64,000 bases of DNA from the human T2T-CHM13v2.0 reference genome, Homo sapiens (GCF_009914755.1 NC_060925.1); one strand, 5' to 3'; shown: positions 4,471-63,085, counted from the stretch's first letter. Program-made: numbers and translations. Notes: a model not told the origin generated them from the letters alone.

Positions 4471-4662
4471 CAGTAAAAAATAATCATCCTTTGGTAATTA
4501 TCTATCACAACTAAACTTAATTTTAAATGTTTTCTTAATTCAGAGATACTTGTATCTCAGTGGTATCAGTAAAAAATAATCATCCTTTGGTAATTATCTA
4601 TCACAACTAAACTTAATTTTAAATGTTTTCTTAATTCAGAGATACTTGTATCTCAGTGGTAT
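4471..4662. repeat. Perfect 2 x 96-bp tandem duplication
   Basis: 4471-4566 is identical to 4567-4662 on manual comparison. Confidence 0.95.
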
Positions 4663-6070: not shown

Positions 6071-6358
6071 TTTTTTTTTTTTTTAAGGCACGCTTTCACA
6101 CTGTCACCCAGGCTGGAGTGCAGTGACATGATCTCGGCTCATGGCAACTTCCACTCCCAGGGCTCAAGCAATTCTCCAGCCTCAGCCTCCTGAGTAGCTA
6201 GGATGATGGGCACCCACAACCAATGCTTGGCTAATTTTTGTATTTTTGTAGAGACAGGGTTTCACCATGTTGCCCTGGCTGGTCTAGAACTCCTGAGCTC
6301 AAAGTGATGCACCTGCCTCGGCCTCCCGATGTACAGGTGTGAGCCACCATGGTCAGCC
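6071..6358 (-). mobile_element. Alu (AluJ-like) with TSD cttcca.atgaatttc; 5' end duplicated
   Basis: polyT followed by antisense Alu dimer. Confidence 0.9.
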
Positions 6359-9300
6359 TTCCATATGAATTTCTAAAAAAGGGATTACAGGTGTCAGCCA
6401 CCGCGGTCAGCCTTCCATATGAATTTCTAAAAAAGACTAGGGAAACACACCAAAAGGCCACAGTAGAAATTTTACTATAAGTATCACCTGAGTATAGCAA
6501 CACTAGATTTATTTTTAAGTGCATATTGATGACTTACTCATACCTCTCTGAGCCTATTTCCTGCAGAATGGTAGTAACAATGCCTAACTTTTAAAAAATA
6601 CATGCGCTAAACTACCAGCACCTACCTAGCACATGGTAGGTACACAAACAAAAGTCCTTCTTCACAGCCCCAGCCCCTACTCTCACCTTAGGACAGGTGA
6701 CAAGTCTACAGGTGTGTTTACCCGGTCCTTCCATCATATTTCTCTCAGGCACCCTCCCCAGTCACAACCATGATATTGGAAAGAAGGTTCTATAGGAATA
6801 CTCTACTCACAGTTTCCCTCTTCTAGTTCTTTGATGATTTGGTCACAGGCGTTCACTTCATTTCTCAACATCCTTTCCTGCTTATTTTGTGAGATCAGTA
6901 CCGTCAGGCAACTGCTGGTGTAAGAAGTAATGTTCTAAAATTATCTTGGCTTGAAATAAGGTGATGGACAAGAAAAAACTGGAAAGCTCAAATGTAAGAT
7001 GGGATTATTAGTATTATCACATGCAAAAAAGCACAAAAGAAACAGATACGGGAAAGGCCAGAATCATTTTCTAACCTACAAAGGGAAAATATTTAAAAGA
7101 TGGAATTTCTTGTGTTATAATCACGACAACAAATTAAAGTCTACCCATCTTTGAATATAGACGACTTTCAAAACCTCATTCGCTATAATGTATTGCCTTT
7201 AGTGAGGACTGTAGAAAAGATCTGAAACACAAAAGTATTTGGTATCTGTGCTACGACCGCATTTTGTCCATACTCACTGCACTATACAAACAGATCTCAT
7301 TAGGCTTAAGACTGACAACATGAAGAAAGTCTTCCTCTCTTCAAATGATTTCCATTTTACTTGATTAATTACATGCACTTGTATATTGAATAGCTAAAAT
7401 AACTGACTGTTCATCCTTATCTAGATGTTTTTGAAATTAACAATTCTTAAAAGGTTATATAATTGAAATGTTTGCATTTATAAACCCCTCAGTTATTTAC
7501 TCAAAGATTTGAAGTGCTTCTAAATAGTTGATAATAAATACTTTAAAAATAACCCAATAAATCAACTCTATAGTTTGGAAAACTCAATTCTTATCAAGGC
7601 ATCCCTTAGCAAGACATTCTCACCAAGATCCCGGCATAAGTGGGTGATTACTTTCTTTATTCCTCAACACAGAACCCTTATCTCTGAAGGAGTCCTGAAT
7701 TTAATCCCCGTAAACCTTTCCCACTGCACAGACACCTACTTGCTTCCCCTCAAAACCTCCTTTTAGAGTCTTTCCACACACTGAACACCTACAACTTTCT
7801 CTGCATCTGATGATAATTGAAGTGGCTACATATACTCAAACTCCATTAACAGGCTTGGGCAGCATTCTGAGTAATCCGAGTATTAACCAGGACTCTACTG
7901 ATTGCTTTTAGGCCTTGCCTGAATGCTCTGAGAAGCACACGAGCTCCCAGAAGTATTGACAGTGGCTTGTCTAGTTAGAGCTCCTTCCTAACCAAAAATT
8001 AAAAAGGAGAAGGAGGAGGGAGAGGAAGAGAGAGATAGATTTAATAAGCCATAGTATACAGCAGGCACTTTACATATATTGTCCCATTTAATCTTCATAA
8101 CCCGGTGAGGGTAGGTATTATTACCTTCACTTCTTTCAGAGAAGTTAAGGAATTCACACAACTAGGAAGTGGGAGGTCAGGGACTGACTCATTTGACTAC
8201 TCCACAGTGCCTGTGAAATGATGGCACACAGCAGCCTCTGTGGACTGAAAAGGTATTCTCTCTTATAGAAAATCTTTGAAGTGTGTTCTGTCCCTTTGCT
8301 CTCCTTTCTCCAAAATCTCCAACCACACTTAGGGTCTCCTTCTATGTCCCCCTATTCTCTTTGGTAAATTACTGATTCCATGTTTGTTCATTACCCAATT
8401 TCTCGCATCTCACTACAACTTTTAGATCTTCATGATGCTAAATCCATCAATACTCCTTTGTGAATACCAAATGAGTTTAGTCCTTAAATATAAGTAATAA
8501 TAATAGTAATGGTTCATTTTTAAAGGAACTTGTATAATTTACAAAGCACTTGAACTTACATTAAGTCATCGAAAACAACAATCCTAGAAAGAAAGTGCCA
8601 ACACCTCCATTTCACAGATGAGGAAATAGGCGCAGAGAAAGAAAGTGACTTAATTAAGGCCACAGAGTCAGTAAAGGGTAGACTTAGATCTCAAAGCAAG
8701 CCAGGTTCAGTGCTCTCCAGCTGAAAAATGAAGAGAGCTGTAAATGCAAATGCTCTAGAAATAGTAAAACACCTAACACAGACAAGTATCTCTAATAATC
8801 AGCAAACTGCTTTGTTTAAGGAATGATCCTAAAAAGATGTATTTGCAAAAAAAAATAGTAAAGAATTTGTTTTCTTGTGACCTATAGAGGCAGGTTTATC
8901 TGGTTAAAAATATAACAGCAACAGAATGTTCCAAAGCAACACACAGAGAAAAAATATCTATGCCTTGTCTGTATTAAGCAACCTCCCCTACTGCCCAGCA
9001 TTATAAAAATCACATTGCCAAAGCAGCTTTACCTGATAATGGAACGTTTTCTTCTCAGATGTTTGTAAAGCTGCTAAAAAAAACAAAAACAAAAAAACAA
9101 AAAAACAAATCAGGTGCATGTTTTTAAATTCAATCTTTCTCCTAAACAAGTACCCACAGTGCTTGAGAAGCTCTTATTACCAGCTAAATCAGTACAATTT
9201 CCTGTTAGCACTGAGTAGCAATGGAGCCAACTGATGAATTTGAACTAGGGAGACCCACTCACAATCCCTAAGCAGGGAAAGTAACTCAAACTCTGAATGT

Positions 9301-17169: not shown

Positions 17170-18932
17170 TCCTTCTTTATCTAGCTTGGGGAATGTTGGG
17201 GGTGGGGGTTTGGTCCTAGCACTTCCATCGACCGGCCTCAGAGGCACATCAGTAGTGGCATAACACCTGCTGACTCAGGCCATCCCAGAGAAATAGCCAT
17301 TGGACCCTCTCTTTAGGTGTAGTCCTGGCTTTTAATAAGAGAGTTTGGGCTACTGAAACGCAAGTAATTCATCAGTCCCTTCAAAGTATAGATAAGAGCC
17401 AGTCATAAACTTAATTTCATACCTAGCATTGGTAGTTACATTGAAACTGCAGTAATACAATCAAATTGCATTAGCCAGCTTTATATTTAAGACCTACTGC
17501 TTTAATTACTTTAAACAACACAGTCTTGTGTGGAAGCAAAGAAAGTCTTGCTATAAAGTGGCATTAGCTTAGGAAACCCCAGATTCTTTGAAGGAGACCG
17601 TTCTAAGAACTCCTACCAGAACCAAAGTCAAGCAGCCAAAAGGAAAAAAAAAGATAAAGCCCGGACTTCAATCCTTGTTAGATGGACTAACCCACTGAGC
17701 AGAAAAATCCCCAGTACAGAAAAATAACCCTAACGAAGATTAGGACAGAAATATTACCTTTGTATATAATGGGTCAACACGTTTACACACTCGTGGGCCC
17801 CAGCTATCATTTCAATCTTCACTTCCTTCATTATCATAGAAAGTAAAAAATCCCTTAATACTGCTGAGCTAAATGAATGTTGTGTCTAAGCTCCTAAGAA
17901 TCAATTTTTTTAAGTTTTCTTTCTACAGTGGCTAATTGGAGAGGAGTTAAGAGTTCAGACTCTGTAAGTAAAGATCTGATTTCAAATTCCATCCTGCCTC
18001 AGGCTGCCTGTGAGACTCTGGGCCGGTTGCCTTTCTAGGTGCCCAGCTTGCTCATCTGTCAATTGGAACTAACAACAGTGCTCATGGGGGTTGCTGTAAG
18101 GACGAAATAGGCCAGTGCCTGGTGCAATGGAAATATGCAATATGTGTTAAATGTTATAAATGCTAACACATGAAGTACTGAAAGGTAGGATGATGACTTT
18201 TGAATTTTGGTTTGTGTGGTTTTTCCCCTCATGAGTTCCAATCTGTTTGGCCCCTAATGGCAAACTCTATCAGGTTGTGAGTCCTTGTTAACTCCACCAA
18301 AAGCTGAGAGAGATAAATGGACCCTTAGCAGCAGAAAAATTGCCTTCTGAAATAACCTCTTCCTGATGCATCCAGCATTTATGTGCTGTCCTTTTTTCCA
18401 AGACAAAAAATTGCATGTTGGAATTGGATTGGAGACATTATCTCGTGATGATTAAGGGAGGTTATTACTACAACAGTTCATGAAATGAAAGCTACCTGCT
18501 TTTACCCAGGGAGCTCTTGAAAATAACCCTCTTTTTCCCCAGTGAATAGGCAAGGAAAAGCAAGATTCCAATAATGGATAGCATTACAAATCCTTTTTCA
18601 TGTACTCTGCTTATCTAAATTGGCACATGATGCCTGCCCACCATCTCTCAGAAATTGTGAGAGGTACTGACTCATCCATCAAGCCCCACCTAACAGCCTG
18701 GGAGGCACCAAGGAGGATATTTCTCTTTCTCTGCTGCCTGTTCCTCACCAAACTGAATCAGCATTTCAAGGAGCTCAATTCCCATTCTGAAAGGTAATAC
18801 CTTCTAAAGATGGGGACGGCAGCACTTATGGAAATTCTAACCCATCAGCTGAAAGATAGGCATGTGAAAGTTAGAGAGTTACCCCACAGTAACCTCCCCA
18901 AAAGCTCTCCATTTGAAAAAATTTTAATTTTA

Positions 18933-19287
18933 CATATATATGTATATACACCCACACATAAACACACATACATACACATATATGTGTGTATATCTATGTA
19001 CATGCATACATGTATGTGTATATGTGTGTATATATATGCATATATATATATATTGCCTTCTGGAAAACCTCTTCCTGATGCATCCAGCATTTATGTGCTG
19101 TCCTTTTTTCCAAGACAAAAAATTGCATGTTGGAATTGGATTGGAGACATTATCTCATGATGATTAAGGGAGGTTATTCCTGCAACAGTTCATGAAATGA
19201 AAGCTACCTGCTTTTACCCAAGGAGCTCTTGAAAATAACCCTCTTTTTCCCCAGCAAATAGACTATATATATACATATATGTGTGTG

Positions 19288-19326
<39 letters not shown>

Positions 19327-19516
19327 ATATATATATATGTATAGAGCCCGGACTTTAATCCTTGTTAGATGGACTAACCCGCTGAGCAGAAAAATCCCCA
19401 GTACAACAAAATAACCCTAAGGAATATATATATTTTTTCTATAGTGGCTAATTGGAGAGGAGTAAGAGTTCAGACTCTGTAAGTAAATATCTGATTTCAA
19501 ATTCCATCCTATATAT
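18933..19516. repeat. Composite locally templated insertion with (TA/TG/CA)n linkers
   Basis: three patches match 18339-18549, 17654-17737 and 17920-17995. Confidence 0.92.
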
Positions 19517-28053: not shown

Positions 28054-31000
28054 CCAGCTTCTCTTGTGCTAATGCAGTCTTGCTTTCAGGCTTCTCTGAC
28101 CACCTCATAAACTAATACGCACTGAGATTTTTTTATTAATGCTGATAGAGATTATTATCACCACAGTAAAGTGATTAAGTCACTTCAAAAGATAAAGAAA
28201 GTAAAAATAAATCATTGCCTTATTTGATATTGTATTGAGGAACTTTAATAACTTGAATTTCATCTTCTATCATGGTATGGTGCTGCTTGTGAGTGTATTT
28301 GGGTCACTAATATGTTGGATCATCAATAACATATCTTTTTCCACTAGAATCTGATGACTACTTTATTTGTGCCTCACTGTGATTTAAACTTCTTATATAA
28401 GTTAACAAATTGCCTTAATTCTGCAAGAAAGTACAAGAAACAAATTTTATTTTCAGAGTATTTTATTACCTTGCTGTATCTTGTTTCTCTATATGTCTAT
28501 AGTTTCATTAATTTTATTTTCCTAATTTTTCTACATTTTAAAATAGAATGTTAGTTTATTTTATGTTTTCTATAACCTTTAACTTTGCATAGTGTTCCCC
28601 AACTTAGCATATTTATCTTTTCTATTTTCTATATATTTGCATTTCTCATTCTTTGCAAAATTTTTATAGCTTTATAGCTAACCAGCTATTTTAGCATTGA
28701 GTGGAAAATAACTTTAACACTTTTTTTCTACAAAAGTGATAGCTTCTCAATTTTAGATTTCTTGTTATCACTTAAATACTATATTCTAGTTATCATTTAT
28801 AAAGAATAAATAAGAACCTAACAAAATCAGTTATAATAGCTGTACTTACCTTGGCTAAAGATGTAAATCAAATTACCCTGACATACAATTTCTGTATGTT
28901 TGCTAGGGATAGTAATTTTAAATGTCTCTAATGGAAGGATTCTCATTAAAAAGCAATAAATATTAAGTACTGGCTAACTTCACAAGTCAAACTTGATAAT
29001 TCTATGGCAGTGTGGTAGTACCTGCACAATTACCTACACAATTCAATAATGTTTCTTCCTCTACAACCCATAAGCCCAATATTAGGTAGCTAATAATACA
29101 GTAAAATGAACCTTCTCCCATTATTTTAAGTAGTTAAAGTAGGTATCCCAATGATAAATTTAATTACCTGAAGAATTTCTAAGCTTTTGGAAAGTATACA
29201 CGTATACAACTTCCTCAATCAGAGTTGAGTGATATGTCCCACAATGGAAAGTTGCAGATACTAAGTTTCTTTCCATCTTAAGAGAGAGCTTTGGTCACTG
29301 ATCAAACTTTGCCATCTTAAACTCATTTTAAAAACAAAAAACACAGAAGACTTAGAAGAGAGGAACACACTGTTTACGGTCAATAGCAGTGACATTATCC
29401 ACTATAAAACCTCCCTTTTCTGAACTTGGATATTAGCCAGCTCCTCCTGAACACCCTTATTTCTTCTCCTCTAACCTTGTCAACACATTTACCCCATGGA
29501 AAATGACAGGAAGTGACTAACATTTCCAGACAACACTAATCATGCCCCTGAACTAAAATAATGAAAACAGGAAAACCTATTCCAGACAAAGTAACAATAC
29601 AGAGTTCTGTATTATCAATCAAAGTATCTTATAAACAGAATGCTCCAAATTCCTTGCCTTCCACCATGATATTGTTTTACATTGCTGTTTTCCAATTCGG
29701 CATACAGACTACAGAGCTGATGTGTATTTTTTAAGTAGGTTTTAAAAATAAGTAAGTCACAGTGTCATATGCCCTCACATGCCATCCATATACAAAGAAT
29801 ACATAACCACCTACGTACTTCCATTTCACAAACACCAAGTGGGTTGAGCTTCTCCCCATAACTCCCCCAAAAAACGCTTATGATACTTGAAAACTCACCA
29901 TTTAGGTCAATTCCTTTATTTATGGTATAAATCCCCTATTTAATATAAATAGCCCTGGTAGGCATAATAGTTAAGAATTGTTAGTCTCTTTTCCCTTGGT
30001 ATAAATATGGTTATCAATACCTTATCTAAGAGCAATTTTAATTTGGAAAACAGCGTGAAGAAGAAAGAAATGGAAAAAGGTGGACCCTGGAGATTCAAAA
30101 GACAAGATTTTTTTAGTCAAAATTTTGAACAGAGTAAGACATGACAGAAAAATTCAGGCAACATTATGTCCATCTGCTTAATGTAAATATAACATATTCA
30201 TAGGATAAAGCTCAATGCCAGACACTTCCACCATTGCATGGCCCCAGCCAGCTTTGCATGGGAACTCACTGCTACCCCTACCAATCAGGGGGTAGTAGTT
30301 GGCTTTCTTTGGTAGTCCTCACCAACCTATTCTTGTACTTCCAGCTCTATTCTGTCCTCTTAGAGGTGTCAGTGGCATTCCAGGATGAAGTGGTGGGGAT
30401 CTCAGCTCTGGGAGTTCATATGCTACTGGTGCTGATTGCCAACCTGCAACAGCCATTAGAGTCCAAGGGATAATGAGAGTAAGGAGACTTCTATCAAGTT
30501 CAGCCAGCTGAAACCATGCATCTAAAATGCTATGGGAAGAAGAGGCAGGGATCAGACAGGAGCAGAAAATAGAAGTAAAAAAGAGAGCTGATGGCCCAGG
30601 GTTTTTAGCTGCTAAACCAAGCCTTCTATTGCCAACATGCTCTGGCCCCATGCATTTACTGGAACTCACACTACCTACTTGCCATAGGCTTGAAAAAAGG
30701 AAAGAAAGGAAAGCAGACTCTAGCAAACTTCTCTGAATGTCCACAGCACACAGGATGTGCCTGATTTACGGAATCTTACAGTGAGGAGTGACTGTAAGAA
30801 AAAGCAATTTGCCCGTGACTTATAAGAGACTCAAAAAGCCCCTCACTCCTACTCTCTTTTGTTGGTAGGGGCAAGATAGAGGTCCATAAAATCCAACAGT
30901 ATAAACTTCATAAAGACTTGCCTTCTGCCTTCTGCCTTCTGTTCACCTTCTGCTATGTAACTACAGCCTCTGCCAGCAATCGAGACCTGCTTGCTACAGA

Positions 31001-34091: not shown

Positions 34092-34398
34092 TCTTAGTAA
34101 CTATAATAGTACAGAGACAAGGTACTGCCTTCTGTTCACCTTCTGCTATGTAACTACAGCCTTTCCAGCAATCGAGACCTACTTAGCAGGTATTTTGTAC
34201 CTGAGTACAAACCATGGGTTATAACTGAACACAATTTGCTGCTCATATTGGTCCAGGTTTGGCTATTAAAATCTCATTCAGTTGGCTCCTGTGCCCCTTT
34301 GACTTATCCATATAAGTGATTTTGCTTAGTTACTTCCTTACTTTCTGGCATTACAAGATTACCCAGTCTCAGCTTCTTAGTAACTATAATAGTACAGA
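34092..34398. repeat. Composite locally templated insertion flanked by 24-bp direct repeats
   Basis: patches match 30932-30992 and 35910-36091. Confidence 0.9.
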
Positions 34399-36377
34399 CA
34401 GCCAAAGGTTGTTACCATTAACTTATCACACAGTCCTCATTGCCCTCTGACCAGTGAGTGGACTGTCCAGTTCCAGAGTCCCATTCAGAGCATCTGCTCT
34501 GTAGAGCCACTCTTGGTTCCAACAAGAAGTACAGCCTGAAATTAGGACTTGGGTACAGTAGTTTGAGAAGTGATCCCAGGAGTAGGAAGAAAAGCACAGG
34601 AAAGAATGGTAAATATAATGGTATGTAATAGAAGTCAATGCTTTAGGCACCAGAGACTGAATTTTACTATAATCTCAAAAAGAGTGTACAGAAAGCAGCT
34701 AACATTGTCTGTCTGAAGGAGAGAACTTTAGGGCATTTATCCACCAGCTCAGGTCCCTCATTGAATGAGGGAGCATAAATTCCCCCACACTTCTGGATTG
34801 CACTTGCATGAGAGTCACACAGGTTGCCTTAGTGCCCAGAGTGAAAAGAAGAAAGAAGCACGGAACATGCCTCTAGAAGGATGGTAAGTCTGAACTCACT
34901 TGGAACTGTCCACTGCAGCTATGGTGCTGCAAAAATGGACCATGGGGAAATGACACAGGCACCAACAGTGTCTGCCACACTAGCTGTATAACCCTGGGCA
35001 ACAAACAACTTACCTGAGCCTGTATCCTTATCTATAAAATGAGGTACATGTCACCTGTCTAACACAGTCATGTGAGGACTCAATTTGTCAGCGAATTAAA
35101 AGAACCAGGTGTCCTGCCCATCATCAAGTCTGGCTGAGGTGTCACACATGAAGGTAGACACCATATACCCTTATCATTTCATATCTTGGTGTTTTGTATG
35201 TTTAGTGCTCATTTTAGGTCAATGGGGCATTTCAAGTTAAGTGGAGTAGAAGTAAGTAAAGGAAAAGTTTGGGGAAGGGTAAGTGAAATAATAGTTCAGG
35301 GTATTTTTTTCCCAGAGACATTCAGTTGGTCCAGCTCTATTTGTTGAAACACTATTATTTTTCACATTGAATTACCTGGACCCGTTTGTTAATTAGTTGG
35401 TCCTAGAAGTGAGATCCTACATATGGAGTCTCTGCTCTATTCCATTCATCTGCATATCTCTCATGAATACTGCACACTTTATTTATACTGGTTAATATTG
35501 TAGTTTTATAATAAATATTGGAATCGAGTCGGGTTAGGTCCTCCAATCTTATCTTGTTTTTTTAATACACTTTAAAAACAGTTTTAGATTAACAGAAAAA
35601 TTGAGAAGACAGCACAAAATTACCACATACCCTGTACCCAGATTTTCCTATTTTAACTTCTTACATTAGCATTGTACATCTGTTACAATTAACAATCCAG
35701 TAGTGATACAATATTATTAACTAAAGTCTCAAACTTTATTCAGATTCCCTTAGTCTTTAGCTAATGTCCTTTTTCTGTTCCAAAATCCCAAAAAGAAAAC
35801 CATGGTACTTTTAGTTGTCATGTCTCCTTTTGCTCTGCTTGGCTGTGACTCTTTTTCAGACTTTCCTCGTATTTGGATGACCTTGACAGTTCTGAAAATT
35901 GCTGAGTATGTATTTTGTACCAGGGTACAAACCATGGGTTATAATCCAACACAACTTGCTGCTCAAGTTGGTCCAGCTTTGGCTGTTGAAAGCTCATTCA
36001 GTAGGCTCCTGTGCCCCTTTGACATATCCCTGTAAGTGATTTTGCTTTGTTTTTTCCTTACTTTCTGGCACTACAAGATGACCCAGTCTCATCCTATGTA
36101 TTTCTTACCCCAGTTCTGGAATCAGCAACTTATCCAAGAGTTTCTGTTGCTTTTATTGGAGAATGATACAGAAAACAAAATCTGGGCACTAGGCATGCTC
36201 ATTGCTACTTTGTCTTTTTAAATATTGTCTTGACCATTTAAGGTTCTTTGTCTTCCCATGTGAATTTTAGAATCAGTCTGTAAACCCCTTCAAATGAGGC
36301 TGCTAGGCTTTTGATTGGAATTAAATTTATAGATCAATTTGGAGAGAATTTTCATTCTAATATTGTTTGCTGATCCA

Positions 36378-40300: not shown

Positions 40301-41613
40301 GTATTCTTATTTCTTATGTGATTTGCAGATACAAATACATTCTCCCAGTCTGTGGGCTGTCTTCATATTCTTGATGCTGTCATTTGAAGCACTTAAGTAT
40401 TTATTTATAGCATAGTCCAATATAATCTTTTTTTTCCTTTATCCCTGTACTTTTTGTATTATATCTAAGAAATCAATGCTTAACCCAAGGTCACAAAGAT
40501 TTAGCCCTGTGTTCACTCTCTGAGGCCTTCAGGCAGCTGCTTTCTGAAGTTTACACTGGTTTTGTGGAGAAGGGTTGATTTGGTAGGCTCTTACTCAGAC
40601 ATTACATGCCATGCAAGTCAGATATTTAGAATGTGTGATTTCAGGAAATTCTTATCCCAAGAGTTTGACTATCATACATCAATGTCTAATTGAAAAATCC
40701 AAAAGTGTGTTTAGGTCTTCATAGAAAACCCAGAGCACAGTACAATTTCTTTTACATGTGAATAAGATATCACATGAAAAAGATATACTCTTTAGCACAT
40801 GCTCTAGGAACTTCCTCTCCCCTAAAACAGAGGTATATGACCAGGCATAATATACAATTACATTAACTTCTTTGACAACAAAATAATAAATTAGATGGAT
40901 ACCAAATTTATGGCCAGCAATACCCCCAGTTTTTTTCTACCCAAAGTGATAATCCAAGAGCAGTAACAAGATAATCTTTTTACTGAGATGAAATTCACAT
41001 AATGTGAAACTATTTTAAAGTGGACGCTCAGTGACATTTCTTATATTCACAATTTGTCAACTACCACCTCTATTTAGTCCCAAGACATTTCACCCCAAAA
41101 TAAAACCTTATACTAATTAAGCAATTACTTTCTATTCCCTTCTTGCCCCACACCCAGTGCCTGGTAACCATCAATCTCTCTTCTCTCTATTGACTTACCT
41201 ATTCTGGATATTTTATATAAATGTAATCATAAAATGTAAATTTTGTGTCTGACTTCTTTTACTTAACACAATGTTTGGAGGTTCATCCACATTATAGCAT
41301 GTATCAGCACTCTATTCCTTTTTATAGCTGAATAATATTCCATTGTATTTATATACCACAATTTATCTGTTCATCAGTTGATGGATATGTGGGCTGTTTC
41401 CATCATTTGGTTACTGTGAATAGCACTGCTATGAACATTAGCTTTTTTCCACTTTTTTTATTGTGGCAAAAAATACATAATAATGATAAATGCTATTAAA
41501 GTACAGTTCAGTACATTACGCATATCCACAGTGTTGTACAACCATCACTACTATCCATCTCTGAAACTTTTTATCTTCCTTAACAAACTTTGTGCCCATT
41601 AAACCCTAACCTT

Positions 41614-41984
41614 GGCCAGGTGTGGTGGTTCACGCCTGTAATCCAGCACTTTGGGAGGCTGAGGCAGGCGGATTGCTTGAGGTCAGGAGTTCGAGGCCAG
41701 CCTGGCCAACATGGTGAAAGCCCGTCTTCACTAAAAATACAAAATTTAGCCAGGAGTGGTGGCACATGCCTGTAATCCCAGCTACTCAGGAGGAAGAGGC
41801 AGGAGGATCACTCGAACCCGGGAGGCAGAAGTTGCAGTGAGCTGAGCCCACAGTAAGTTTGTCAAACGGGTCAAAGTTGTCTGCAGCTCCACTTAGCCTA
41901 GAATCCAGTCATGCCACTGCACTCCAGCCTGGGCGACAGAGCGAGACTCCATCTCAAAAAAGGAAAAAAAAAAAAAAAAAAAAA
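41614..41984 (+). mobile_element. Alu (AluS-like) carrying a 62-nt non-Alu insertion at 41847-41908
   Basis: Alu dimer, A tail, TSD aaac(c/g)ctaac; right arm interrupted at gag|..|tcatgccactgc. Confidence 0.92.
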
Positions 41985-42546
41985 CGCTAACTTCCCATTT
42001 CCTTTCTCCCACCAGCTCCTGGTACTCGCCATTGTACTTTCTGTCTCTGTAAATCTGACTAGTTTAGGTACCTCATATAAGTGAAATCATATTAATACAA
42101 TAGTCGTCCTGCGTCTGCTTTATTTTATTCAGCATAATGTTTTCAAGATGAATATCAAATATTTTTTATAAAAAGTATACATTTTACATGCAAAATTTAT
42201 TAAGTTTAACACTGCAATCAAATGGCAAAGACATCATCAAAAACATGTACGAAGCAAGCACCTTTTGCTGGCATCACTTCATTGGATCCTCACAGCTGCT
42301 CTGTGAGATGGGCTTTACAGATGAAAGAATAGAGCCCAGGGAAGATAAGTGACTTACCCAAGGACATGCAGCTTGTAAACCAACAAGCAAACATGCACAT
42401 TCAGGTCTTCTAATTTCCAGTCCTTTTTAATTTACAGGATCAGCTGCCTCCCATCCCATTTATAAGGATGGTCAAAACAAAAAGATACCAATGTTGGACA
42501 GCAAGTCAGGGAAGGAGCTAGAACTTGATAAACTAGCTTTTGTAAG

Positions 42547-43409
42547 TGATAACGGGAGGGAAGTGCTGGGAAGGGCGTGGTCCCTTTAAATAACAGGAAA
42601 GGAGGGAAAGGAAGTGCTGGGTAGAGGAGGGCGTGGTCCCTGGCGAGGGCTCCACCCCCAAACCCGTGCCCACGGGTCTAAGTGAGGACAGGCACCCCTG
42701 CCTTCAGCGCCCAAATGTTGCATTTCCTAAGACCACCCTGGCTCACCACGCCCCCATCCTGTGCCTATAAAAACCTCCAAGATTCTAGCAGGCAGACACA
42801 CAAGCAGCTGGACGTGGAGAGGAACACATCGCAGAAGACACAAGCAGCTGGACAGCGAGAGGATGTGGATGGGAGCACGCCAGAGGAAGAGCACACGACA
42901 GATCCCAGCATGCCGACAGGCCACGACTGGCGGAAGGAGGAACAGTTGGCGGAGTTTGGCCGGGGCAATCAGAGGAGAGCCCAGGCAGTCTAGCGGCCCA
43001 ACTCCAGGGGAAAACCATCTCCCTTCTGGCTCCCCCATCTGCTGAGAGCTACTTCTACTCAGTAAAACCTTGCACTCGTTCTTCAAGCCCAGGTGTGATC
43101 CGATTCTCCTGGTACACCAAGGCAAGAACCCAGGGATACAGAAAGCCCTCTGTCCTTGCAATAAGGCAGGGGTCTAATTGAGCTAACACAAGCTAACTAT
43201 GGACAGCTAAACTAAAAGAGCACGTGGTAACACATGCCCACTGGGGCTTCAGCTGCAAACATTCACCCCTAGACATTGCTGTGGGGTCGGAGCCCCACAG
43301 CCTGCCCATCTGTATGCTCCCCTAGATTTGAGCAGTGGGGCACTGAAGAAGCCAGCCACATCCCCATTCCACACCCTGCAAGGGGGACAAGGGAACATTT
43401 CCCGTTTCA
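42547..43409 (+). mobile_element. ERV1 solo LTR, LTR1-family-like
   Basis: TG...CA termini (tgataacggg / cccgtttca), GC boxes, TATAAAA at 42766, AGTAAA at 43061; subfamily assigned from memory. Confidence 0.75.
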
Positions 43410-44241
43410 CTGAGAAGGGCATTCCAGGCTGGTAACCATCTGTGACCTGGGTGCAGAGATGAGCTTGGTAGGGGCTGCACAAGGAAGAAAGAAGCAGGAT
43501 GTGGATAGGAACTGTGAATATCCTAATCTGATTTAAAAAGGACTCTTAGAAGAATCTTTCCTTTCATTCCAACCTATAATGGATTATCTTAAACAAGGAC
43601 CTTTGTTCTTTTTTTCCCTGCCTCATGAGAATATACAGATAAATAGAATTTCAGCCAAACACTACATGTGCCCTGAGAGCTTCCTAGTTGGCATCTGCTG
43701 CATTTGTCTTTTCCCACTGCAGCCTGGACTGGTGCAGGATGTGGAAGGGATGAGGTATTGCTTAACACACATTAGAGACAAAATCCTTGACAAAAATAAA
43801 GTACTAAAGTGAATTTGATTCATTTACTTGATAACCCATACTATAGACTACCTTTGCCCTTAAGATTGATTTCTGCAGACCAGAGAATTTTTTTATTGCC
43901 TCAGCTATTAATGCCAGCCCAACCACAATTTTCTAGAATTTCTTTCATTTCTTTCTGAAAAGCACACACATCTTTATTTCATATTGCATCACTTCTTTAG
44001 AAGAAAACATGATTTTGCTCATTGTTTTTGGCAACATTGCTAAAGATATAAAAGCATTTAATTTAACAATAATTACTATCAAAAGAAATAACTTTTGAAA
44101 AACTTCCCAGAGTGTTTATTACAGAAACAAAAAGAAAAACTGAGAGGAGTGAAGACTAGGCATTTGCAATTTGTGGATACCAACCACCCATAAGCAGAAG
44201 AAGAATAATTTGGTTCTAATCAAAAGATTTGGTCTATTTGG

Positions 44242-44577
<336 letters not shown>

Positions 44578-44748
44578 TTATTCGGGGAACTCTGTATGTA
44601 AGTTGGCAAAGACCAAAATAGTGCCAACATATGAAGCACTGAAAAAGAAAAAGTTAAAATATCTTAGCCTCAACACTCGAAATATAGCAAGCCCACATAT
44701 TTGAAGACCAAACACATCAAGACTCATCTTTCCCTTAAAAGAATTTTC

Positions 44749-45040
44749 AGCTGGGCACAGTGGCTCGTGCCTGTAATCCCAGCACTTTGGGAGGCTGAGG
44801 CGGGTGGATTACTTTAGACCAGGAGTTTGGGACCAGCCTGGCCAAAATGTGAAACCCCCGTCTCTACTAAAAATATAAAAATTAGCCGAGACTGGTGGTG
44901 CACACCTGTAGTCCCAGCTATTCAGGAGACTGAGACAAGACTCGCTTGAACCCAGGAGGTGGAGGCTGCAGTGAGCCAACATTGCACCACTGCACTCCAG
45001 CCTAGACAACAGAGTGAGACTTTGTCACAAAAAAAAAAAA
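44749..45040 (+). mobile_element. Alu (AluS-like)
   Basis: dimer with A tail, TSD agaatttt. Confidence 0.9.
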
Positions 45041-46454
45041 GAGAGAATTTTTCTTTGTCAGATGTAGAATATAACTTAAGAGAAATTTATTAACATTTAA
45101 GCTCCTTAGTATAGAAAACTGGAGGAAAATAACTTTAGTACACACTTAATTTGCTATACTAAATTTTTTTAATAAAGACCTTCAAAAGGAAAATTTAGAT
45201 TATAAGTAGCATGGCACATATAGAATATGAACACAGAAAGTTCATATCTAAGCCCTAAGCCACTTATGATAAACACCTATAAAAGGAACAAAAACTAAAC
45301 TTCCACATTATTTTACCCAGTAAAAGATGTAGGCTATTAGTAGAAAGTTGGTTAAGTAAATTCAAAAAATAAAAATATAAAAAAGAAATAATGAGAAAAT
45401 TTTTGAAAAATATTAATAAAATAAAGATGTAGGCTACATAGCTGAGGCTATTATTCACACCATATAGAAATTAGGTTCTCGAGCCAAGCAGAAACTATAA
45501 CATAATCAGAAAGAATACCTAAAGAAATAAAGTATGACTTCCTAAATTTTTTATTTTAAAAATGCCCAGTTTATTTATTTGCTTTGCCTAAGATAGCTGC
45601 ATTCATTATTACAGGGTCAGGGGACTTGTAAAAACAAATATCAATTATTATAAATAATCACAGAAAACAAATAAACTGGAAAATAAACAGCGGTTACTAA
45701 TTTAAGGTTTTAACCCTTACCCCAACCACCCAAAAAAAGTAGCCATTTTTAAAATAAAGATTAAGAGTTGGTGGAATTTAAGGGAAATGCCATCCGGTAA
45801 TGTTACCTAAATACTAGAAAGGAATCAGCACAAGGAAACAGGAACAAAGCAGTGCAGTACTTCGGTATTACAGCGCCACCCACTGGCTAGAAGTCCTCAT
45901 AGCACATATGAGATGTAGCCATAAAATAGATGAATTCTTGAAATAAGGAATATAACACTGACTATTCTGATTCAGTAGAACATAAAAAATGTCTAACAAA
46001 ACAGAACCAGACACATTATATTATTTCTACAAGTAAACAGAATATCTATTAGATATGTTCACAAGGGTTTTATCAATTTTGAAATCCAAGTGTATAATCC
46101 CCAAATGCTGTAAGGACTTAAATTTTATAGCCAAAACAATTAACACATAAAATGCTATTTCATCTCTGTAGCTGAATACATAAATAGTATCTTTAAGTAA
46201 AAGATGCATACTTGCATTTCATTGCTAAGCAATTCATAATATATTTAAATGCTGGTAAAACCTACAATGGCATCTGCTTCACTTCTACCTTTACTAGAGA
46301 AGTAACAAAATACACTGAGCAAAGGATATGTCCAAAAAACTAAACTGAAAAACAGTTTCTAAATAAAGTCCACAGACCATTCAGATAAACTAGTAAAAAT
46401 AGTTTTTCTTTAAAGTACCACAGCACCTTTGTAGTTCAAAATATATTTACCATA

Positions 46455-46733
46455 GGCTGGGCGTGGTGGCTCACGCCTGTAATCCCAGCACTTTGGGAAG
46501 CTGAGGCAGGCAGATCACAAGGTCAGGAGATCGAGACCATCCTGTGAATGGTGAAACCCTGTCTCTACTAAAAATATAAAAAAAATTAGCCCGGCATGGT
46601 GGCGGGCACCTGTAGTCCCAGCTACTCAGGAGGCTGAGGCAGGAGAATGGTGTGAACCCAGGAGGCGGAGCTTGCAGTGAGCCGAGATTGCACCACTGCA
46701 CTCCAGCCTGGGCGACAGAGCAAGACTCTGTCT

Positions 46734-46788
<55 letters not shown>

Positions 46789-46791
46789 TAT
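46455..46791 (+). mobile_element. Alu (AluY/Sc-like) with long A tail followed by (TA)n
   Basis: gagatcgagaccatcctg and gaatggtgtgaacc..ggagcttgcag diagnostic positions. Confidence 0.9.
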
Positions 46792-46804
46792 CGTAATATA
46801 TCTC

Positions 46805-46853
46805 TTTATTATCCTAGTGACATCTGTTGTGATTTTCCAAATCACTATTTATT
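46805..46853 (-). terminator. FRRS1: Proximal FRRS1 polyA signals (AATAAA on - strand at 46853-46848 and 46810-46805)
   Basis: canonical hexamers about 300 nt past the stop, followed on the - strand by the (TA)n/U-rich Alu tail. Confidence 0.6.
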
Positions 46854-47155
46854 TTCTTAAATACCAACATTCTTAAAATCTTGGCATGAAATATTTGAGA
46901 GTTACTTCTCCTGAAGTACAATCTTTCCTTTAAGACCCAGAATTACATATAGGGCATGACATTAATTTATAGTCTATATGACCCTCTTGAATGTTGTTCT
47001 CTAAAGGCTGGACTTCAGAATTCCTCTACAGACATGACCCCAGTCTTCCAAGTGAGAATTCACAAATATGCTCCAGGCAGTCAGGACAGGCTTCAAGTTT
47101 CTTTGGTTTGATGATAATTATCACTTGGCCTGCAAAAGCCAAGGTCTTTGCTTGC

Positions 47156-47248
47156 TCATAGATGGTTGATTGCAGATAAAAATATGATGAGAAAAGTAAC
47201 ATTCCCACAGACATAAATTGCCAACACTGCCTTTTTAAAAGCATGACC
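47156..47248 (-). CDS. FRRS1: FRRS1 terminal exon, coding part (GHAFKKAVLAIYVCGNVTFLIIFLSAINHL*)
   Basis: tttcag| after a 77-nt intron; TGA at 47158-47156; C-terminal hydrophobic helix. Confidence 0.93.
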   Translation of the reverse strand, partial: GHAFKKAVLAIYVCGNVTFLIIFLSAINHL

Positions 47249-47387: not shown

Positions 47388-47813
47388 CTGTCAAGAATAA
47401 TAACATAAGTTTTTAAGGGCAGCGTTATGCAGGTAAATTAAATTTTTTAAAAAAACCTGATTTGTACTGTTCACCCCAATTTCCAGGGTAGAAATTCTCC
47501 CACTCCAAACTACTAATTATTGCAGACTTCCTGAACAATTAAGCCTCTCACAAATGTGGACAATCTGGCAAGAGCACACATTTGTTAAATAACTTAAAAT
47601 ATGCCTTCTTCTAGTCATTAAACACCACCTCAAAGTCATAACGATCTAAGCTCTTTGGTTTTATTTTTGATTGACAAAATATTGTATATATTCATGGTGT
47701 ATGACATGATGTTTTGATATATGCATACATTATAAAATAGCTAAATCAAACTAATTAACATATGATAACTATCCAGGTTTTAAGTATATATGTATTTTAG
47801 ACAGTAAGCCATC

Positions 47814-48122
47814 AGCCAAGCATGGTGGCTCACACCTGCAATCCCAGCACTTTGGAAGGAAGAGGCGGGTAGATCACTTGAGCCCAGGAGTTTGAGATCA
47901 GCCTGGGCAACAAAGTGAGACCCTGTCTCTAAAAAAATTTAAAAACTTAGCTGGGTATGATAGCACGTCCCTGTGATCCCAGCTAGATGGGAATCTGAAT
48001 CAGGTGGATGGCTTAAGCTCTGGAGTTCAAGGCTGCAGTGAGCTATGATCACACCACTGCACTCCAGCCTAAATGACAGAGTGAGACTCTGTCTCAAAAC
48101 AAACAAACAAACAAACAAAAAA
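47814..48122 (+). mobile_element. Alu (AluJ-like), (AAAC)n tail, TSD acagtaagccat
   Basis: dimer; TSD at 47801-47812 and 48123-48134. Confidence 0.9.
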
Positions 48123-48933
48123 ACAGTAAGCCATAATTCAGTGGTCATCAAAAGCCCCACATATATAAGCCTATCAAGGATCAAAAGTAGCAGGACAGAT
48201 ATGTACTACTCAGCTCCTGAAGCCACCCCAGGCTCTCCTAAGTTTACAACATATACACTAGACAACAAAGAATTTTTGTTTTTAGAAGGCCACCTTCACT
48301 TATTTTGGTGGATGAAAACCAGGCAGGACACAAAGGACATTTAGCCTAGAATCCAGGCTAAATGATACCCATTCCCTACTAATTTCTCCACTCCTAATGG
48401 TGGCTATAGGTATCCTGACCCTGCCTGGCACCAAAACAAACCTTGTCACTAAAGAGCAAAAGCAAAATCAGTCCTTCCTATCTGGCTTGCTCCTAGCTAC
48501 ATAATTATGCACATGACAACCTAAATGATAGCACCCAGTAAATTTGTCAAATAGGTCAAAGTTGTCTGCACCTCCATCCAGTGTTGACTTTGAGTCTCTT
48601 CTTCCTCCATCTCAGGGTTTCCTCAGCTCTAGGCATTCAGAGTTCCCAGTCCATACTGGCTCTAAGTCAGACCAGCAAAGTGAAAGTACTTACAAGGAAG
48701 ACTCCCTGCCTAAAACCTAAAACCTTTCCTTTATATCTTATTCACAACTTCTAATAGTAACAAATGTAAAAAAACAAAGGCAGAAAATCACAATTTCTAG
48801 CACTGGCTGAGTGATCACAAGTTTTTAGTGAGCTAACAATGTAGCAGTCAGCCATTACTATCGGGAAGCGCATTCTTTTCCAATGGTTTGTATAGAAGTG
48901 CTTCTACATAACATGGCTTTTTTACCAGGTTAC

Positions 48934-61640: not shown

Positions 61641-63085
61641 GAAGAATTTGACAAATTATGTCTAAAGTTTATCTAGAAGAACAGATACATATGAAGAAGC
61701 AAAAATTCTTGAAAAAGAAGGCCAGAAGGGGAATCATGTTCTATCAAAACTCACAAACCTATTATAAAGCAATAGCAATTCTAACTAATGCAGGAATAGA
61801 CAAATATATCAATAGAGGAACAGATACACTAGAAATAATTCAATTTATTGATAGATTTTTAGTATATGATAAAGAGGCTTTTAAAGCAGTGAGAAAACAT
61901 GGACTATTCAAAAAAATGGTGTTAGGACACCTGGTTACTCATCCAGTGAATACTATTTTACCATGGCTTCTTATAAAGCAGAAAATGAGAAAGAAGAGTT
62001 TTATGTAATGAATGCCTAGAGAAGAGAGTGTCAAGAAGAAAAAGACAGTAACTGTCAGGAGCTACAAAAGTGTCAAAAAGAAAATGATCAAGAAAACTAT
62101 CAAACATGACAAGAAAGGCACTGGGAAAGCAAAAATCTTGCATTCATTGAGTGGTAGTTATGAAAAAGAGACTCCAAGCCCAACAAGCCTGAGAGACAAG
62201 TTGGAAGAAAATGTGTTTAAACTCTGAATCACTATAGAGCCATGAACTAAGTATGAACTTAACCTTCATGAAAGCAGAAGTCCATTATGATTTCAGAGTT
62301 CCATTGTGTGGCTCCATTATAATTTTGCAGTCTTGCTCAAAGGGAGTTCATGCTTAGTGCAAGAACCAGCAGTAATAGGTTACCTACAGTATTCCTAAAT
62401 TCTTTAAATAACAGGTCATGTGACAGCTGTGTCTCTACTTCATTAATTATTAAAATTGGTAGATTTCCTCATTGTGAATTACTTAATTACCCAAGTGATT
62501 TCTATCTTTCAGTTTAAACACTCAGTATTTCACATGACTGCTTATCCCAAGACAGGACAATGTCAGCAACATGAAGAAAATAGCAGTTAGAAAAAGGTTT
62601 TAAATGGATAGATTGTTAGGAGACTTTATTGAAATTGGATACATTTTACATTTATACAGGTTACAGAGATTATATGATAGCTTTGAAAATTGGCTTAAAC
62701 CTTACCAAGTCTTACTGCTTTTAAGCAGATTTCAATTTATAAATGGTCCACATACATAAAGCTAAGTAATAGAAGAGGCAATGATTTATGTGATAACTGT
62801 CCTTTGTTCCCCAGTACAAAAAGATTGGAAAATTCATTCCCAGGAATAGCAATCTCCAGGTTTGTTTATTGGAGTGTTTTGTTTTGTGTGCTTTGCACTG
62901 TACCAGTTAAAAAAAAAAAAAATTAGCTTGTGCTGCAAATATATGTATATTTTTGTTAATAAACAGATTCATGTTTATTGGATTATATTGTATTAATATC
63001 TATTACACCTAATACATATTGTATTAATATCTATTATATCTAATACATATTAAGATATTAATATGTATTAATATCTTATGTACTC

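What the first reader, a model, noticed from the sequence alone, without database searches (positions are those of the whole stretch)
41845..41910. Third composite insertion: an Alu right arm patched with two pieces of a FRRS1 intron from 6.5 kb away
Seen: the Alu consensus gagATCgcgccactgc is interrupted by 62 nt. 41851-41891 copies 48536-48576 (4 mismatches in 41; the alignment extends back to an AG microhomology at 41845/48530). 41893-41908 (TTAGCCTAGAATCCAG) exactly copies 48341-48356. The two donors are about 200 bp apart, used in reverse order, and share CAT at the switch point (ctcCAT / gaCATttag). Because the host is an Alu, the pre-insertion sequence is known, so the direction of copying is clear and the event postdates the Alu. 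Inference: microhomology-mediated double template switch, from looped DNA or nascent FRRS1 pre-mRNA.
Basis: partly seen in the sequence, partly recalled or inferred. Interest (0 to 1): 0.75.

Follow-up and report, generated by a model that had tools for sequence, protein, structure and literature searches.

The report
Copied intron patch inside an Alu
A 62-base patch copied long ago from two nearby spots in a FRRS1 intron sits inside an Alu repeat; it is a clean but ordinary scar of error-prone DNA break repair.

Summary
The + strand Alu at 41614-41981 has its own target-site duplication. Its right arm carries 62 extra bases (41848-41909) that none of 9 other Alus in the window has. Bases 41845-41891 match 48530-48576 at 41 of 47. 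In the 3.1-Gb assembly, that site and the insert itself are the only matches (E 3.7e-7). The 16-mer 41893-41908 equals 48341-48356 exactly and occurs at only three places genome-wide.

New detail: the insert aligns to one continuous donor, 48530-48582, broken by a 12-base excursion to 48340-48351. The excursion leaves at CAT and returns at ATCCAG. Donor 2 is one arm plus the loop of a perfect 10-bp hairpin. A 10-base direct repeat abuts both copied tracts.

Divergence of 7 in 66 makes the event old.

Best reading: microhomology-primed, discontinuous copying during repair of a break in the Alu. A DNA template and an RNA template cannot be told apart here. The kind is known (MMBIR-type or class-2 templated insertions; non-tandem double duplications). 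Interest is low to moderate.

The parts
41614..41981 (+). Host Alu (dimeric, with poly-A tail), interrupted in its right arm
   Evidence: Two SRP-like arms on the + strand, 41615-41730 and 41749-41957. It aligns to the other window Alus on both sides of the insert.
41601..41613 (+). Left target-site duplication of the Alu (AAACCCTAACCTT)
   Evidence: Read by eye. It matches 41982-41993 with 1 mismatch and 1 one-base gap, so both Alu halves belong to one ordinary insertion.
41982..41993 (+). Right target-site duplication of the Alu (AAACGCTAACTT)
   Evidence: Read by eye.
41848..41909 (+). The 62-nt insert. The Alu base A expected between GAG and TCATG is missing. The exact ends are ambiguous by 1-3 nt because AG on the left and T on the right are shared with the donor.
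   Evidence: Absent from 9 of 9 other window Alu segments aligned. The BLAST gap is at query 240-301/306.
41845..41892 (+). Tract A: copy of 48530-48577, including the shared AG at the left joint and CA(T) at the switch
   Evidence: 41 of 47 identical over 41845-41891. 41892 is C where both donors have T.
41890..41908 (+). Tract B: copy of 48338-48356
   Evidence: 18 of 19, with the 16-mer 41893-41908 exact.
41904..41909 (+). TCCAGT. It also equals 48577-48582, the continuation of donor 1 at the point where tract A left it.
   Evidence: Column view. The identical 6-nt run ATCCAG ends at both 48356 and 48581.
48530..48582 (+). Donor 1, in the FRRS1 intron 47388-48933. Single copy in the genome.
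   Evidence: The intron bounds come from the hub's gene table.
48338..48356 (+). Donor 2, in the same intron
48338..48364 (.). Perfect hairpin: 10-bp stem (48338-47 with 48355-64) and 7-nt loop. Donor 2 is its 5' arm, the loop and 2 nt more, and it starts at the first stem base.
   Evidence: Present in the MFE and centroid folds, and in the RNA fold of the other strand. It is one of only 2 such loci in 64 kb once dinucleotide runs are dropped.
48358..48367 (+). 10-nt direct repeat, copy 1 (CTAAATGATA). It starts 1 nt after the end of donor 2.
48521..48530 (+). 10-nt direct repeat, copy 2. It ends at the first base of donor 1.
   Evidence: In the empirical simulation, a shared 10-mer lying this close to two such points had P = 3.3e-4.
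42107..47248 (-). Last exon of FRRS1. Its 3' end (42107) lies 198-259 bp from the insert, so the Alu sits just downstream of the gene's poly(A) site.
   Evidence: Hub gene table; not tested here.

Best explanation
A chromosome break inside the right arm of an already resident Alu, at GAG|A|TCATG, was sealed in the germline tens of millions of years ago with a patch of newly made DNA. The patch was made by short, repeatedly interrupted synthesis. That synthesis was primed by 1-6 nt identities on single-copy DNA of the FRRS1 intron 6.5 kb away on the same chromosome.

The simplest path has five steps:
1. Prime at AG (48530-31).
2. Copy to CAT (48577).
3. Re-anneal at CAT (48338-40) and copy 48341-48356.
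4. Re-anneal by ATCCAG onto 48576-81, the very spot that was left.
5. Add T and join the other Alu end, losing one Alu base.

The same product arises if the path is run the other way. It also arises if each break end copies one tract outward and the two meet at CAT.

Shown:
- The insert is real.
- The direction of copying is intron to Alu.
- The donors are single copy.
- The joint identities are there.
- The event is old.

Inferred:
- That a break started it.
- The order of the steps.
- That the template was DNA.
- That the donor hairpin and the 10-nt repeat steered where synthesis started and stopped.

No function is implied. It is a neutral scar.
For: Insert and host.

Donors unique genome-wide: 2 places: self and donor; donor 341 nt: 2 places: self and the insert; 16-mer: 3 places; the C15 place shares only the 16-mer.

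The insert aligns to the contiguous stretch 48530-48582 with a 12-nt gap filled by 48340-48351. The 6-nt ATCCAG coincidence at the point of departure has P about 0.003 allowing 8 registers.

There is no target-site duplication and no poly(A) round the insert, and only 1 nt of the host is lost. That is what two ends of one break give.

Donor 2 coincides with a rare perfect hairpin, and a 10-nt repeat abuts both tracts.

Age: 7 of 66 differences (95% interval 4.4-20.6%). P(7 or more) is 1.5e-5 if divergence were only 1.2%.

The kind is documented:
- Germline templated insertions with microhomology and up to five templates (PMC8421209, passages).
- Class-2 templated-sequence insertions with microdeletion and microhomology and no TSD or poly(A) (PMC5110952, text parts 1-2).
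- Non-tandem and 'double' localized duplications (PMC5829575, passages).
Against: Nothing here shows a break, a polymerase or a DNA template. The same joints fit an RNA template.

The distance (6.5 kb) and the direct orientation do not fit the published search signature of MMBIR-type insertions, which is inverted copies within 100 bp. Nor do they fit typical POLQ inserts, about 85% of which are primed within 10 bp and which are mostly under 25 bp (PMC5068794, passages).

No single path uses all three local coincidences. The excursion path leaves the 10-nt repeat (P 3.3e-4) unexplained. The two-ended path leaves ATCCAG unexplained.

The Alu flanks show no significant likeness to the donor that would explain why this donor was chosen.

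The divergence of the patch (about 5% per lineage) is not clearly less than that of the Alu itself. The Alu is 13.6% from a crude window consensus, with 12 of its 40 differences at CpG. So 'after the Alu' rests on logic, not on dating.
Confidence: 0.65

Rival explanations
1. Same break repair, but the template was RNA: unspliced FRRS1 pre-mRNA, still tethered to the polymerase while it ran through the termination zone where the Alu lies. A reverse-transcribing activity copied it from the left break end.
For: Strand logic works. The + strand 3' end left of the break can pair with minus-sense FRRS1 RNA and would make 48530 to 48577 and then 48338 to 48356 in the observed orientation (hub table).

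The Alu lies 198-259 bp past the FRRS1 3' end, and both donors lie in an intron of the same gene.

Experimental templated insertions are reported to be enriched for transcribed sequence and to be reduced by RT inhibitors (PMC5110952, text part 2).

The second composite in the window (34.1 kb) also lies downstream of a gene end (PALMD, 32672), with one donor in that gene's last intron.
Against: There is no splice junction or other RNA-only mark. The donor is purely intronic.

About half of all sequence within 7 kb of the site is FRRS1-transcribed anyway, so the co-location is weak evidence.

Only the one-ended, left-to-right path is possible on RNA, and in that direction the hairpin does not explain the stops.

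Composite 2 also uses an intergenic donor, and composite 1 uses a piece from another chromosome.
Confidence: 0.12
2. The reversed order was already present in the template. The template would be a small circle (about 237 bp, 48341-48577 closed at CAT) or a transient tandem duplication of that segment, and one continuous 65-nt stretch across its junction was copied or captured into the break.
For: The insert is exactly what a read across such a junction would give, in the same orientation and with CAT at the joint. The size is in the range recalled for small extrachromosomal circles; that range is recalled, not from a call.
Against: The present genome holds no circle or duplication. The ATCCAG identity at the point of departure and the 10-nt repeat at both tract ends play no part in this model. 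A canonical back-spliced RNA circle is excluded: read by eye, none of the 4 possible registers of the CAT joint has the AG acceptor.
Confidence: 0.08
3. The donor locus, not the copy, is the rearranged one. When copied, the intron held the 12 nt inside donor 1, or lacked the 163 nt between the 10-nt repeats, and it changed afterwards.
For: The 10-nt direct repeat flanking a 153-nt spacer looks like the footprint of an insertion or deletion at the donor. A later loss of the 12 nt would also explain why the insert aligns to a continuous donor 1.
Against: It needs two or three independent rare events at the same few bases. The 12 nt are not flanked by a repeat that would favour precise loss. The 163 nt have no other copy in the genome and no transposon ends (by eye). 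Even a contiguous ancestral donor would still be permuted relative to the insert.
Confidence: 0.06
4. The patch was made during the Alu's own integration. The LINE-1 reverse transcriptase left the Alu RNA, copied nearby plus-sense nucleic acid, and returned to the Alu RNA.
For: The patch's divergence is compatible with the Alu's age. LINE-1 RT template switching to other RNAs is documented (PMC13174262, passages).
Against: Documented chimeras are end-to-end concatenations at the element's 5' side, not internal patches with a return to the next base. A return by a 2-nt AG to the exact neighbouring position among many AGs is unlikely. The template would have to be antisense to FRRS1, for which there is no annotation.
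Confidence: 0.04
5. Chance resemblance, or an unrecognised repeat family that supplies both the insert and the 'donors'.
For: None found. One further exact copy of the 16-mer exists on C15.
Against: Genome-wide E is 3.7e-7, with only self and donor found. The donor is single copy. The C15 site shares only the 16-mer, about what 3.1 Gb gives by chance. No Rfam family matches in 48100-48800.
Confidence: 0.01

Closest known systems
MMBIR / FoSTeS-type templated insertions (MMB-TI; PMC8421209, PMC2621351)
   Same: An insertion templated elsewhere in the genome, several templates in one event, 2-6 nt microhomology or one-mismatch 'microhomeology' at the joints, possible return to the original template, and accumulation as harmless germline variants.
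   Different: The published search signature is an inverted copy within 100 bp. Here the copies are direct and 6.5 kb away, and no copy-number change or larger rearrangement is attached.
Class 2 templated-sequence insertions / TSIPs (PMC5110952)
   Same: A patch at a presumed double-strand break with an intact donor, no target-site duplication, no poly(A), a microdeletion and microhomology. Intronic donors are reported.
   Different: Published cases are 73-414 bp in the experimental system, usually come from distant loci or other chromosomes, are single pieces, and were defined as polymorphisms. This one is 62 nt and composite, its donor lies in cis at 6.5 kb, and it is old and probably fixed (population state not testable here).
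Non-tandem localized duplication, 'double' type (PMC5829575)
   Same: Two non-adjacent nearby segments duplicated and inserted next to each other on the same strand. Template switching is named there as a likely cause.
   Different: Those 2 cases were found as differences between living humans and the reference, at larger scale, with the target roughly half-way between the sources. Here the target lies 6.5 kb to one side and the pieces are 47 and 19 nt.
Polymerase theta end-joining templated inserts (delins; PMC5068794)
   Same: Reiterated priming, extension and dissociation; priming on 1 or more nt; mismatches near the points where synthesis aborts. Here there is a T>C at the CAT switch and two mismatches within 5 nt of the left joint.
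   Different: About 85% of those inserts are primed within 10 bp of the break and most are under 25 bp; only about 3% map to distant sites. Dependence on the enzyme cannot be tested on an old scar.
LINE-1 chimeric insertions by RT template switching (PMC13174262)
   Same: A retroelement copy carrying foreign sequence acquired by template switching.
   Different: Those are terminal concatenations that arrive with the element. Here the foreign piece is internal, the Alu continues at the next base, and the Alu has its own normal target-site duplication.

Membership tests
Templated insertion by microhomology-mediated template switching (MMBIR-type, MMB-TI) | Inserted bases (10 nt or more) are a copy of sequence present elsewhere in the genome | tested here: met
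   41 of 47 and 18 of 19 identity to 48530-48576 and 48338-48356. Only these places match genome-wide.
Templated insertion by microhomology-mediated template switching (MMBIR-type, MMB-TI) | Microhomology or one-mismatch microhomeology at the joints | tested here: met
   AG at the left joint, CAT (now CAC) at the switch, ATCCAG at the return, T at the right joint.
Templated insertion by microhomology-mediated template switching (MMBIR-type, MMB-TI) | Template is an inverted copy within 100 bp of the insertion (the MMBSearch signature) | tested here: not met
   Direct orientation, 6.4-6.7 kb away (definition).
Class 2 templated-sequence insertion (TSI/TSIP) | No target-site duplication of 5 bp or more, no poly(A) tract or signal at the insert | tested here: met
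   The insert is flanked by GAGCTGAG and TCATGCC. Only AG recurs at its two ends, and no A-run is present.
Class 2 templated-sequence insertion (TSI/TSIP) | End-joining marks: microdeletion, microhomology | tested here: met
   1 nt of the Alu is lost. 8 of 9 other Alus have an A there. Joint identities as above.
Class 2 templated-sequence insertion (TSI/TSIP) | Derived through an RNA intermediate | not testable with these tools
   By the hub table the donor is intronic in a transcribed gene. It carries no splice junction or other RNA-only mark.
Class 2 templated-sequence insertion (TSI/TSIP) | Polymorphic among humans | not testable with these tools
   Only one assembly is held. The 10.6% divergence argues that the event is old and probably fixed.
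Polymerase theta end-joining templated insert | Template in the immediate flank of the break (most within 10 bp) and a short insert (mostly under 25 bp) | tested here: not met
   The template is 6.5 kb away and the insert is 62 nt.
LINE-1-mediated insertion (class 1 TSIP / retrocopy) | Target-site duplication, poly(A) tail, TTTT/A target | tested here: not met
   None of these is present at the insert's ends. The Alu itself has them (TSD 41601-13 / 41982-93 and a poly-A tail).
   For the 68-mer, 2 candidates were found and 2 scored: self and donor. For 341 nt of donor, 2 places: self and the insert. Caveat from the tool: very common words are skipped and only the best candidates are scored.
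Non-tandem double duplication (Frith and Khan) | [quoted passage not shown] | tested here: met
   Both sources are intact at 48338-56 and 48530-82, and the copies abut at 41890-92.

The most novel reading that the evidence does not exclude
The patch was reverse-transcribed from nascent, unspliced FRRS1 pre-mRNA while the transcribing polymerase was in the gene's own termination zone, where the Alu lies 200-260 bp past the poly(A) site. It would then be a fossil of transcript-templated break repair in the primate germline. The window's second composite (34.1 kb, just past the PALMD 3' end, with a donor in PALMD's last intron) would be a second case of the same thing.
Probability: 0.12. Interest if true: 0.7.

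Novelty: new member of a known kind. Interest (0 to 1): 0.3.

Why it matters
On its own it is a neutral scar with no sign of function.

Its value is as an unusually legible example:
- The host is an Alu, so the pre-event sequence and the direction of copying are known without an outgroup.
- The donor is single copy.
- Every joint can be read to the base.

That makes interrupted Alus, and other repeats with a known consensus, a practical probe for a genome-wide census of long-range templated patches. Such a census could measure how far templates lie from breaks, whether hairpins and short direct repeats in the donor set where copying starts and stops, and whether donors favour the transcribed strand of the same gene. 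The last is the test of RNA-templated repair in the germline.

Published detectors look within 100 bp and for inverted copies, so events like this one are outside what they count.

The window also holds two more composite patches within 23 kb. Three 60-kb control stretches held none. That hints at local clustering but does not establish it.

Tried and rejected
Rejected:
1. Repeat family or many loci: whole-assembly searches with the 68-mer, with 341 nt of donor and with the 16-mer.
2. The C15 copy of the 16-mer as the true donor: its flanks do not match.
3. A known structured RNA gene as donor: no Rfam match at E up to 1 in 48100-48800.
4. A back-spliced circular RNA or a lariat junction as the source of the reversed order. 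Read by eye, none of the 4 registers of the CAT joint has an AG acceptor, and the joint is far from the intron's 5' end and branch region.

Led nowhere:
5. Homology between the Alu break site and the donor as the reason for donor choice. The left flank scored below the random mean. The right flank's best match (CTGCA-CTCCAGCC against 48566-79) is matched or beaten by 23% of random segments.
6. A long-range 7-bp stem pairing 48338-44 with 48521-27 that would bring the two tract ends together. It is absent from the MFE and centroid folds, and the region as a whole does not fold unusually well (z -1.7 as DNA, -0.95 as RNA).
7. One event for all three composites. Divergence of 18/375 against 7/66 gives Fisher P = 0.078, which is inconclusive.

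Could not be done:
10. Primate orthologues, human population data and contact maps: no tool here holds them.
11. Print search for this locus. One search (FRRS1, templated insertion, template switch, Alu; any 2 of the 4 terms; 1,011 papers, 8 listed) showed no listed paper that mentions FRRS1. This is not a thorough search.

Full report
**What is there.** The window holds a + strand Alu at 41614-41981 with a poly-A tail. It has its own target-site duplication: AAACCCTAACCTT at 41601-13 and AAACGCTAACTT at 41982-93, read. Rfam's SRP model hits both arms on the + strand, at 41615-41730 and 41749-41957.

BLAST of this Alu against the window gave 27 HSPs. The other Alus align to its positions 1-239 and then again from 302/307, with subject coordinates that run straight on. 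In a MAFFT alignment of this copy with 9 other Alu segments, the extra block sits between GAGCTGAG and TCATGCC. 8 of the 9 others have an A there that this copy lacks; the ninth is gapped in that stretch. So 62 nt were gained (41848-41909) and one Alu base was lost.

**Where it came from.** 41845-41891 matches 48530-48576 at 41 of 47. 41893-41908 equals 48341-48356 at 16 of 16, or 18 of 19 with the shared CAT.

A search of the whole 3.1-Gb assembly with the 68-mer found 2 candidates and scored both: the insert itself and 48530-48576 (E 3.7e-7). The donor stretch 48300-48640 likewise found only itself and the insert. The 16-mer occurs at 3 places genome-wide: the insert, donor 2 and one site on C15. 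The reversed control occurs at 0. The C15 site shares nothing beyond the 16-mer, which is about what chance gives in a genome of this size. The expected number of chance hits within 300 bp of donor 1 is 2.8e-7. No Rfam family matches the donor region.

The tool warns that very common words are skipped and that only the best candidates are scored. Both donors lie in the FRRS1 intron 47388-48933 (hub table), same strand as the insert, in reversed order, 173 bp apart, 6.4-6.7 kb from the Alu.

**Finer anatomy (new).** Laid out in columns, the insert aligns to one continuous donor, 48530-48582. The only gap is 12 nt (41892-41903), and it is filled by 48340-48351. The exit point shares CAT (48575-77 and 48338-40). 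The insert now reads CAC there, a mismatch to both donors.

The end of donor 2 and the sequence at the point of departure in donor 1 share ATCCAG (48351-56 and 48576-81). In a simulation on the window, a run of 6 or more in any of 8 registers has P about 0.003. So the nascent strand appears to have left donor 1, copied 12-16 nt some 240 bp away, and come back to the spot it left.

Two further features of the donor coincide with tract boundaries.
- Donor 2 is the 5' arm, the loop and 2 nt more of a perfect hairpin (10-bp stem at 48338-47 with 48355-64, 7-nt loop), and it begins at the first stem base. The hairpin is in the MFE and centroid folds. Once dinucleotide runs are dropped, only 2 loci in the 64 kb have such a hairpin, covering 0.1% of bases.
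- A 10-nt direct repeat, CTAAATGATA, lies at 48358-67, 1 nt after donor 2 ends. It lies again at 48521-30, ending on the first base of donor 1. The empirical P is 3.3e-4.

The copied tracts are therefore exactly the two intervals between an outer repeat pair (CAT..ATCCAG / CATCCAG) and an inner pair (the 10-mer).

**Age.** Insert and donors differ at 7 of 66 positions (10.6%, 95% interval 4.4-20.6%). If the copies had diverged only as much as human and chimpanzee (about 1.2%, general knowledge), 7 or more differences would have P = 1.5e-5.

Synthesis errors cannot account for most of them. Even the high error rate reported for POLQ-templated inserts in C. elegans, about 1 in 30 (PMC5068794, passages), predicts about 2.

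The host Alu is 13.6% from a crude consensus of the window's Alus (40 of 294, 12 of them at CpG). By my recalled, unverified comparison with an AluS consensus, it differs at roughly 6% of non-CpG positions. The patch is thus old, tens of millions of years, and not clearly younger than the Alu. That it came after the Alu follows from the anatomy: one TSD for both halves, and continuation at the next base. It does not follow from the dating.

**Mechanism.** The near-perfect retention of the host (1 nt lost), the lack of TSD or poly(A) at the insert, and the 1-6 nt identities at every joint fit the sealing of a two-ended break by short, interrupted, microhomology-primed synthesis on an ectopic template.

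Three paths give the observed product:
- (a) left to right from the left end: AG, copy to CAT, switch, copy to ATCCAG, return, T, join;
- (b) the same path run right to left from the right end;
- (c) each end copies one tract outward from the 10-nt repeat zone and the two meet at CAT.

Path (b) on a folded plus-strand template gives the hairpin a role: entry in its loop by ATCCAG, then ejection at the stem base. Path (c) gives the 10-nt repeat zone a role. No path uses every coincidence, and I count that as unexplained.

The polymerase cannot be named. The distance and direct orientation are outside the MMBSearch signature of inverted copies within 100 bp (PMC8421209). They are also outside the bulk of POLQ inserts, although about 3% of those map to distant sites.

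**DNA or RNA.** FRRS1 pre-mRNA is minus-sense, so the + strand 3' end left of the break could be extended on it to give the observed orientation. The Alu lies only 198-259 bp past the FRRS1 3' end. The donor is intronic with no splice mark. About half of the sequence within 7 kb is FRRS1-transcribed in any case. The neighbouring composites use intergenic and other-chromosome pieces. I put DNA at about 0.65-0.8 (0.65 without the circle and rearranged-donor variants, about 0.8 with them) and RNA at about 0.12.

**Other readings.**
- An integration-coupled event (LINE-1 RT switching and returning) is unlikely. Known chimeras are terminal (PMC13174262, passages), and a 2-nt return to the adjacent base would be a coincidence.
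- A circle or transient tandem copy of 48341-48577 would also give the reversed order but leaves two coincidences idle.
- A canonical back-splice is excluded by the dinucleotides (by eye).

**Context.** A self-BLAST of the window, filtered for low-copy pairs, returned 10 pairs. Two are tandem duplications. One is a 40-nt, 85% inverted pair 41 kb apart. Seven fall in three composite loci: this one, 19052-19510 and 34092-34398.

- The first composite is a run of copies of 18339-18549 (96%), 17654-17740 (92%) and 17917-17995 (95%). It also holds 90 nt whose only other match is on C7, minus strand, 87%.
- The second joins copies of 30932-30992 (95%) and 35902-36091 (87%). The latter belongs to an old repeat family whose other members match at about 70-85%. 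The block lies between a perfect 24-nt direct repeat.

The same pipeline on three 60-kb control stretches chosen blind (C2, C6, C11) gave 19 low-copy pairs. None of them is non-tandem with at least 85% identity and at least 40 nt. Given three loci in 244 kb, all three falling in the window has P = 0.018. This is a hint of clustering, no more.

**Comparison with what is known.**
- Germline templated insertions with microhomology, up to five templates, and possible return to the original template are described (PMC8421209, passages).
- Class-2 templated-sequence insertions are described: a break patch with microdeletion and microhomology, no TSD or poly(A), and intronic donors among them (PMC5110952, text parts 1-2).
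- Localized non-tandem duplications are described: 26 same-strand, 21 opposite-strand and 2 'double' cases in their Table 2 (PMC5829575, passages).
- Filler-DNA repair of natural breaks in primate evolution (PMC2567098), short-range template switching in apes (PMC7954356), the MMBIR model (PMC2621351) and RNA-mediated end joining (PMC11390984) were seen only as search listings and abstract openings.

This case works like these and is best filed as a new instance of a known kind. It fails the narrow 'inverted, within 100 bp' and 'flank-templated, under 25 bp' criteria, so I do not file it under MMB-TI in the strict sense or under POLQ delins.

I found no mention of this locus in one print search: 1,011 papers held at least 2 of the 4 terms, and none of the 8 listed mentions FRRS1. 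That is not a thorough search.

**Verdict.** It is a real, old, neutral, templated patch. Interest is 0.3: legible and instructive, not surprising to a repair or genome-evolution specialist.

Noticed in passing
window 19052-19510 (sources 17654-18549; C7:132817382-132817471 of the assembly): Another composite patch. It is made of adjacent copies of 18339-18549 (96%), 17654-17740 (92%) and 17917-17995 (95%), out of order. It also holds 90 nt whose only other genome match is on another chromosome, opposite strand, 87%. Neighbouring pieces overlap by 8 and 3 nt in the search coordinates, which suggests microhomology joints.
   Followed up: partly
window 34092-34398 (sources 30932-30992 and 35902-36091): A third composite. 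A block of about 259 nt is built from a copy of PALMD last-intron sequence (95%) and a copy of a downstream old-repeat member (87%, against about 70-85% to that family elsewhere). It is bracketed by a perfect 24-nt direct repeat (34092-34115 = 34375-34398). It lies about 1.4 kb past the PALMD 3' end.
   Followed up: partly
window 4470-4662: A perfect (100%) tandem duplication of 97 nt. It is evidently young.
   Followed up: no
window 6328-6435: A tandem duplication of about 54 nt at 92.6% identity, next to masked repeats.
   Followed up: no
window 63041-63078: An AT-rich nested palindrome (stems of 10-13 bp, loops of 4-10 nt). It is the only locus in the window besides 48338-48364 with a perfect hairpin of 10 bp or more, once dinucleotide runs are dropped.
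   Followed up: no
window 41917-41929 versus 48566-48579: The Alu's right flank CTGCACTCCAGCC resembles the end of donor 1, CTGCACCTCCATCC (12 of 13 with one gap), right where copying left donor 1. It was not used for the final joint and is not significant on its own: 23% of random segments score as high.
   Followed up: yes
controls: C2 60.00-60.06 Mb, C6 50.00-50.06 Mb, C11 30.00-30.06 Mb of the assembly: Three blind 60-kb stretches held no non-tandem low-copy pair with at least 85% identity and at least 40 nt. The window held six such pairs in three composite loci. This suggests that the PALMD-FRRS1 interval is unusually rich in local patch duplications, but the sample is small and the window was chosen after the fact.
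   Followed up: partly
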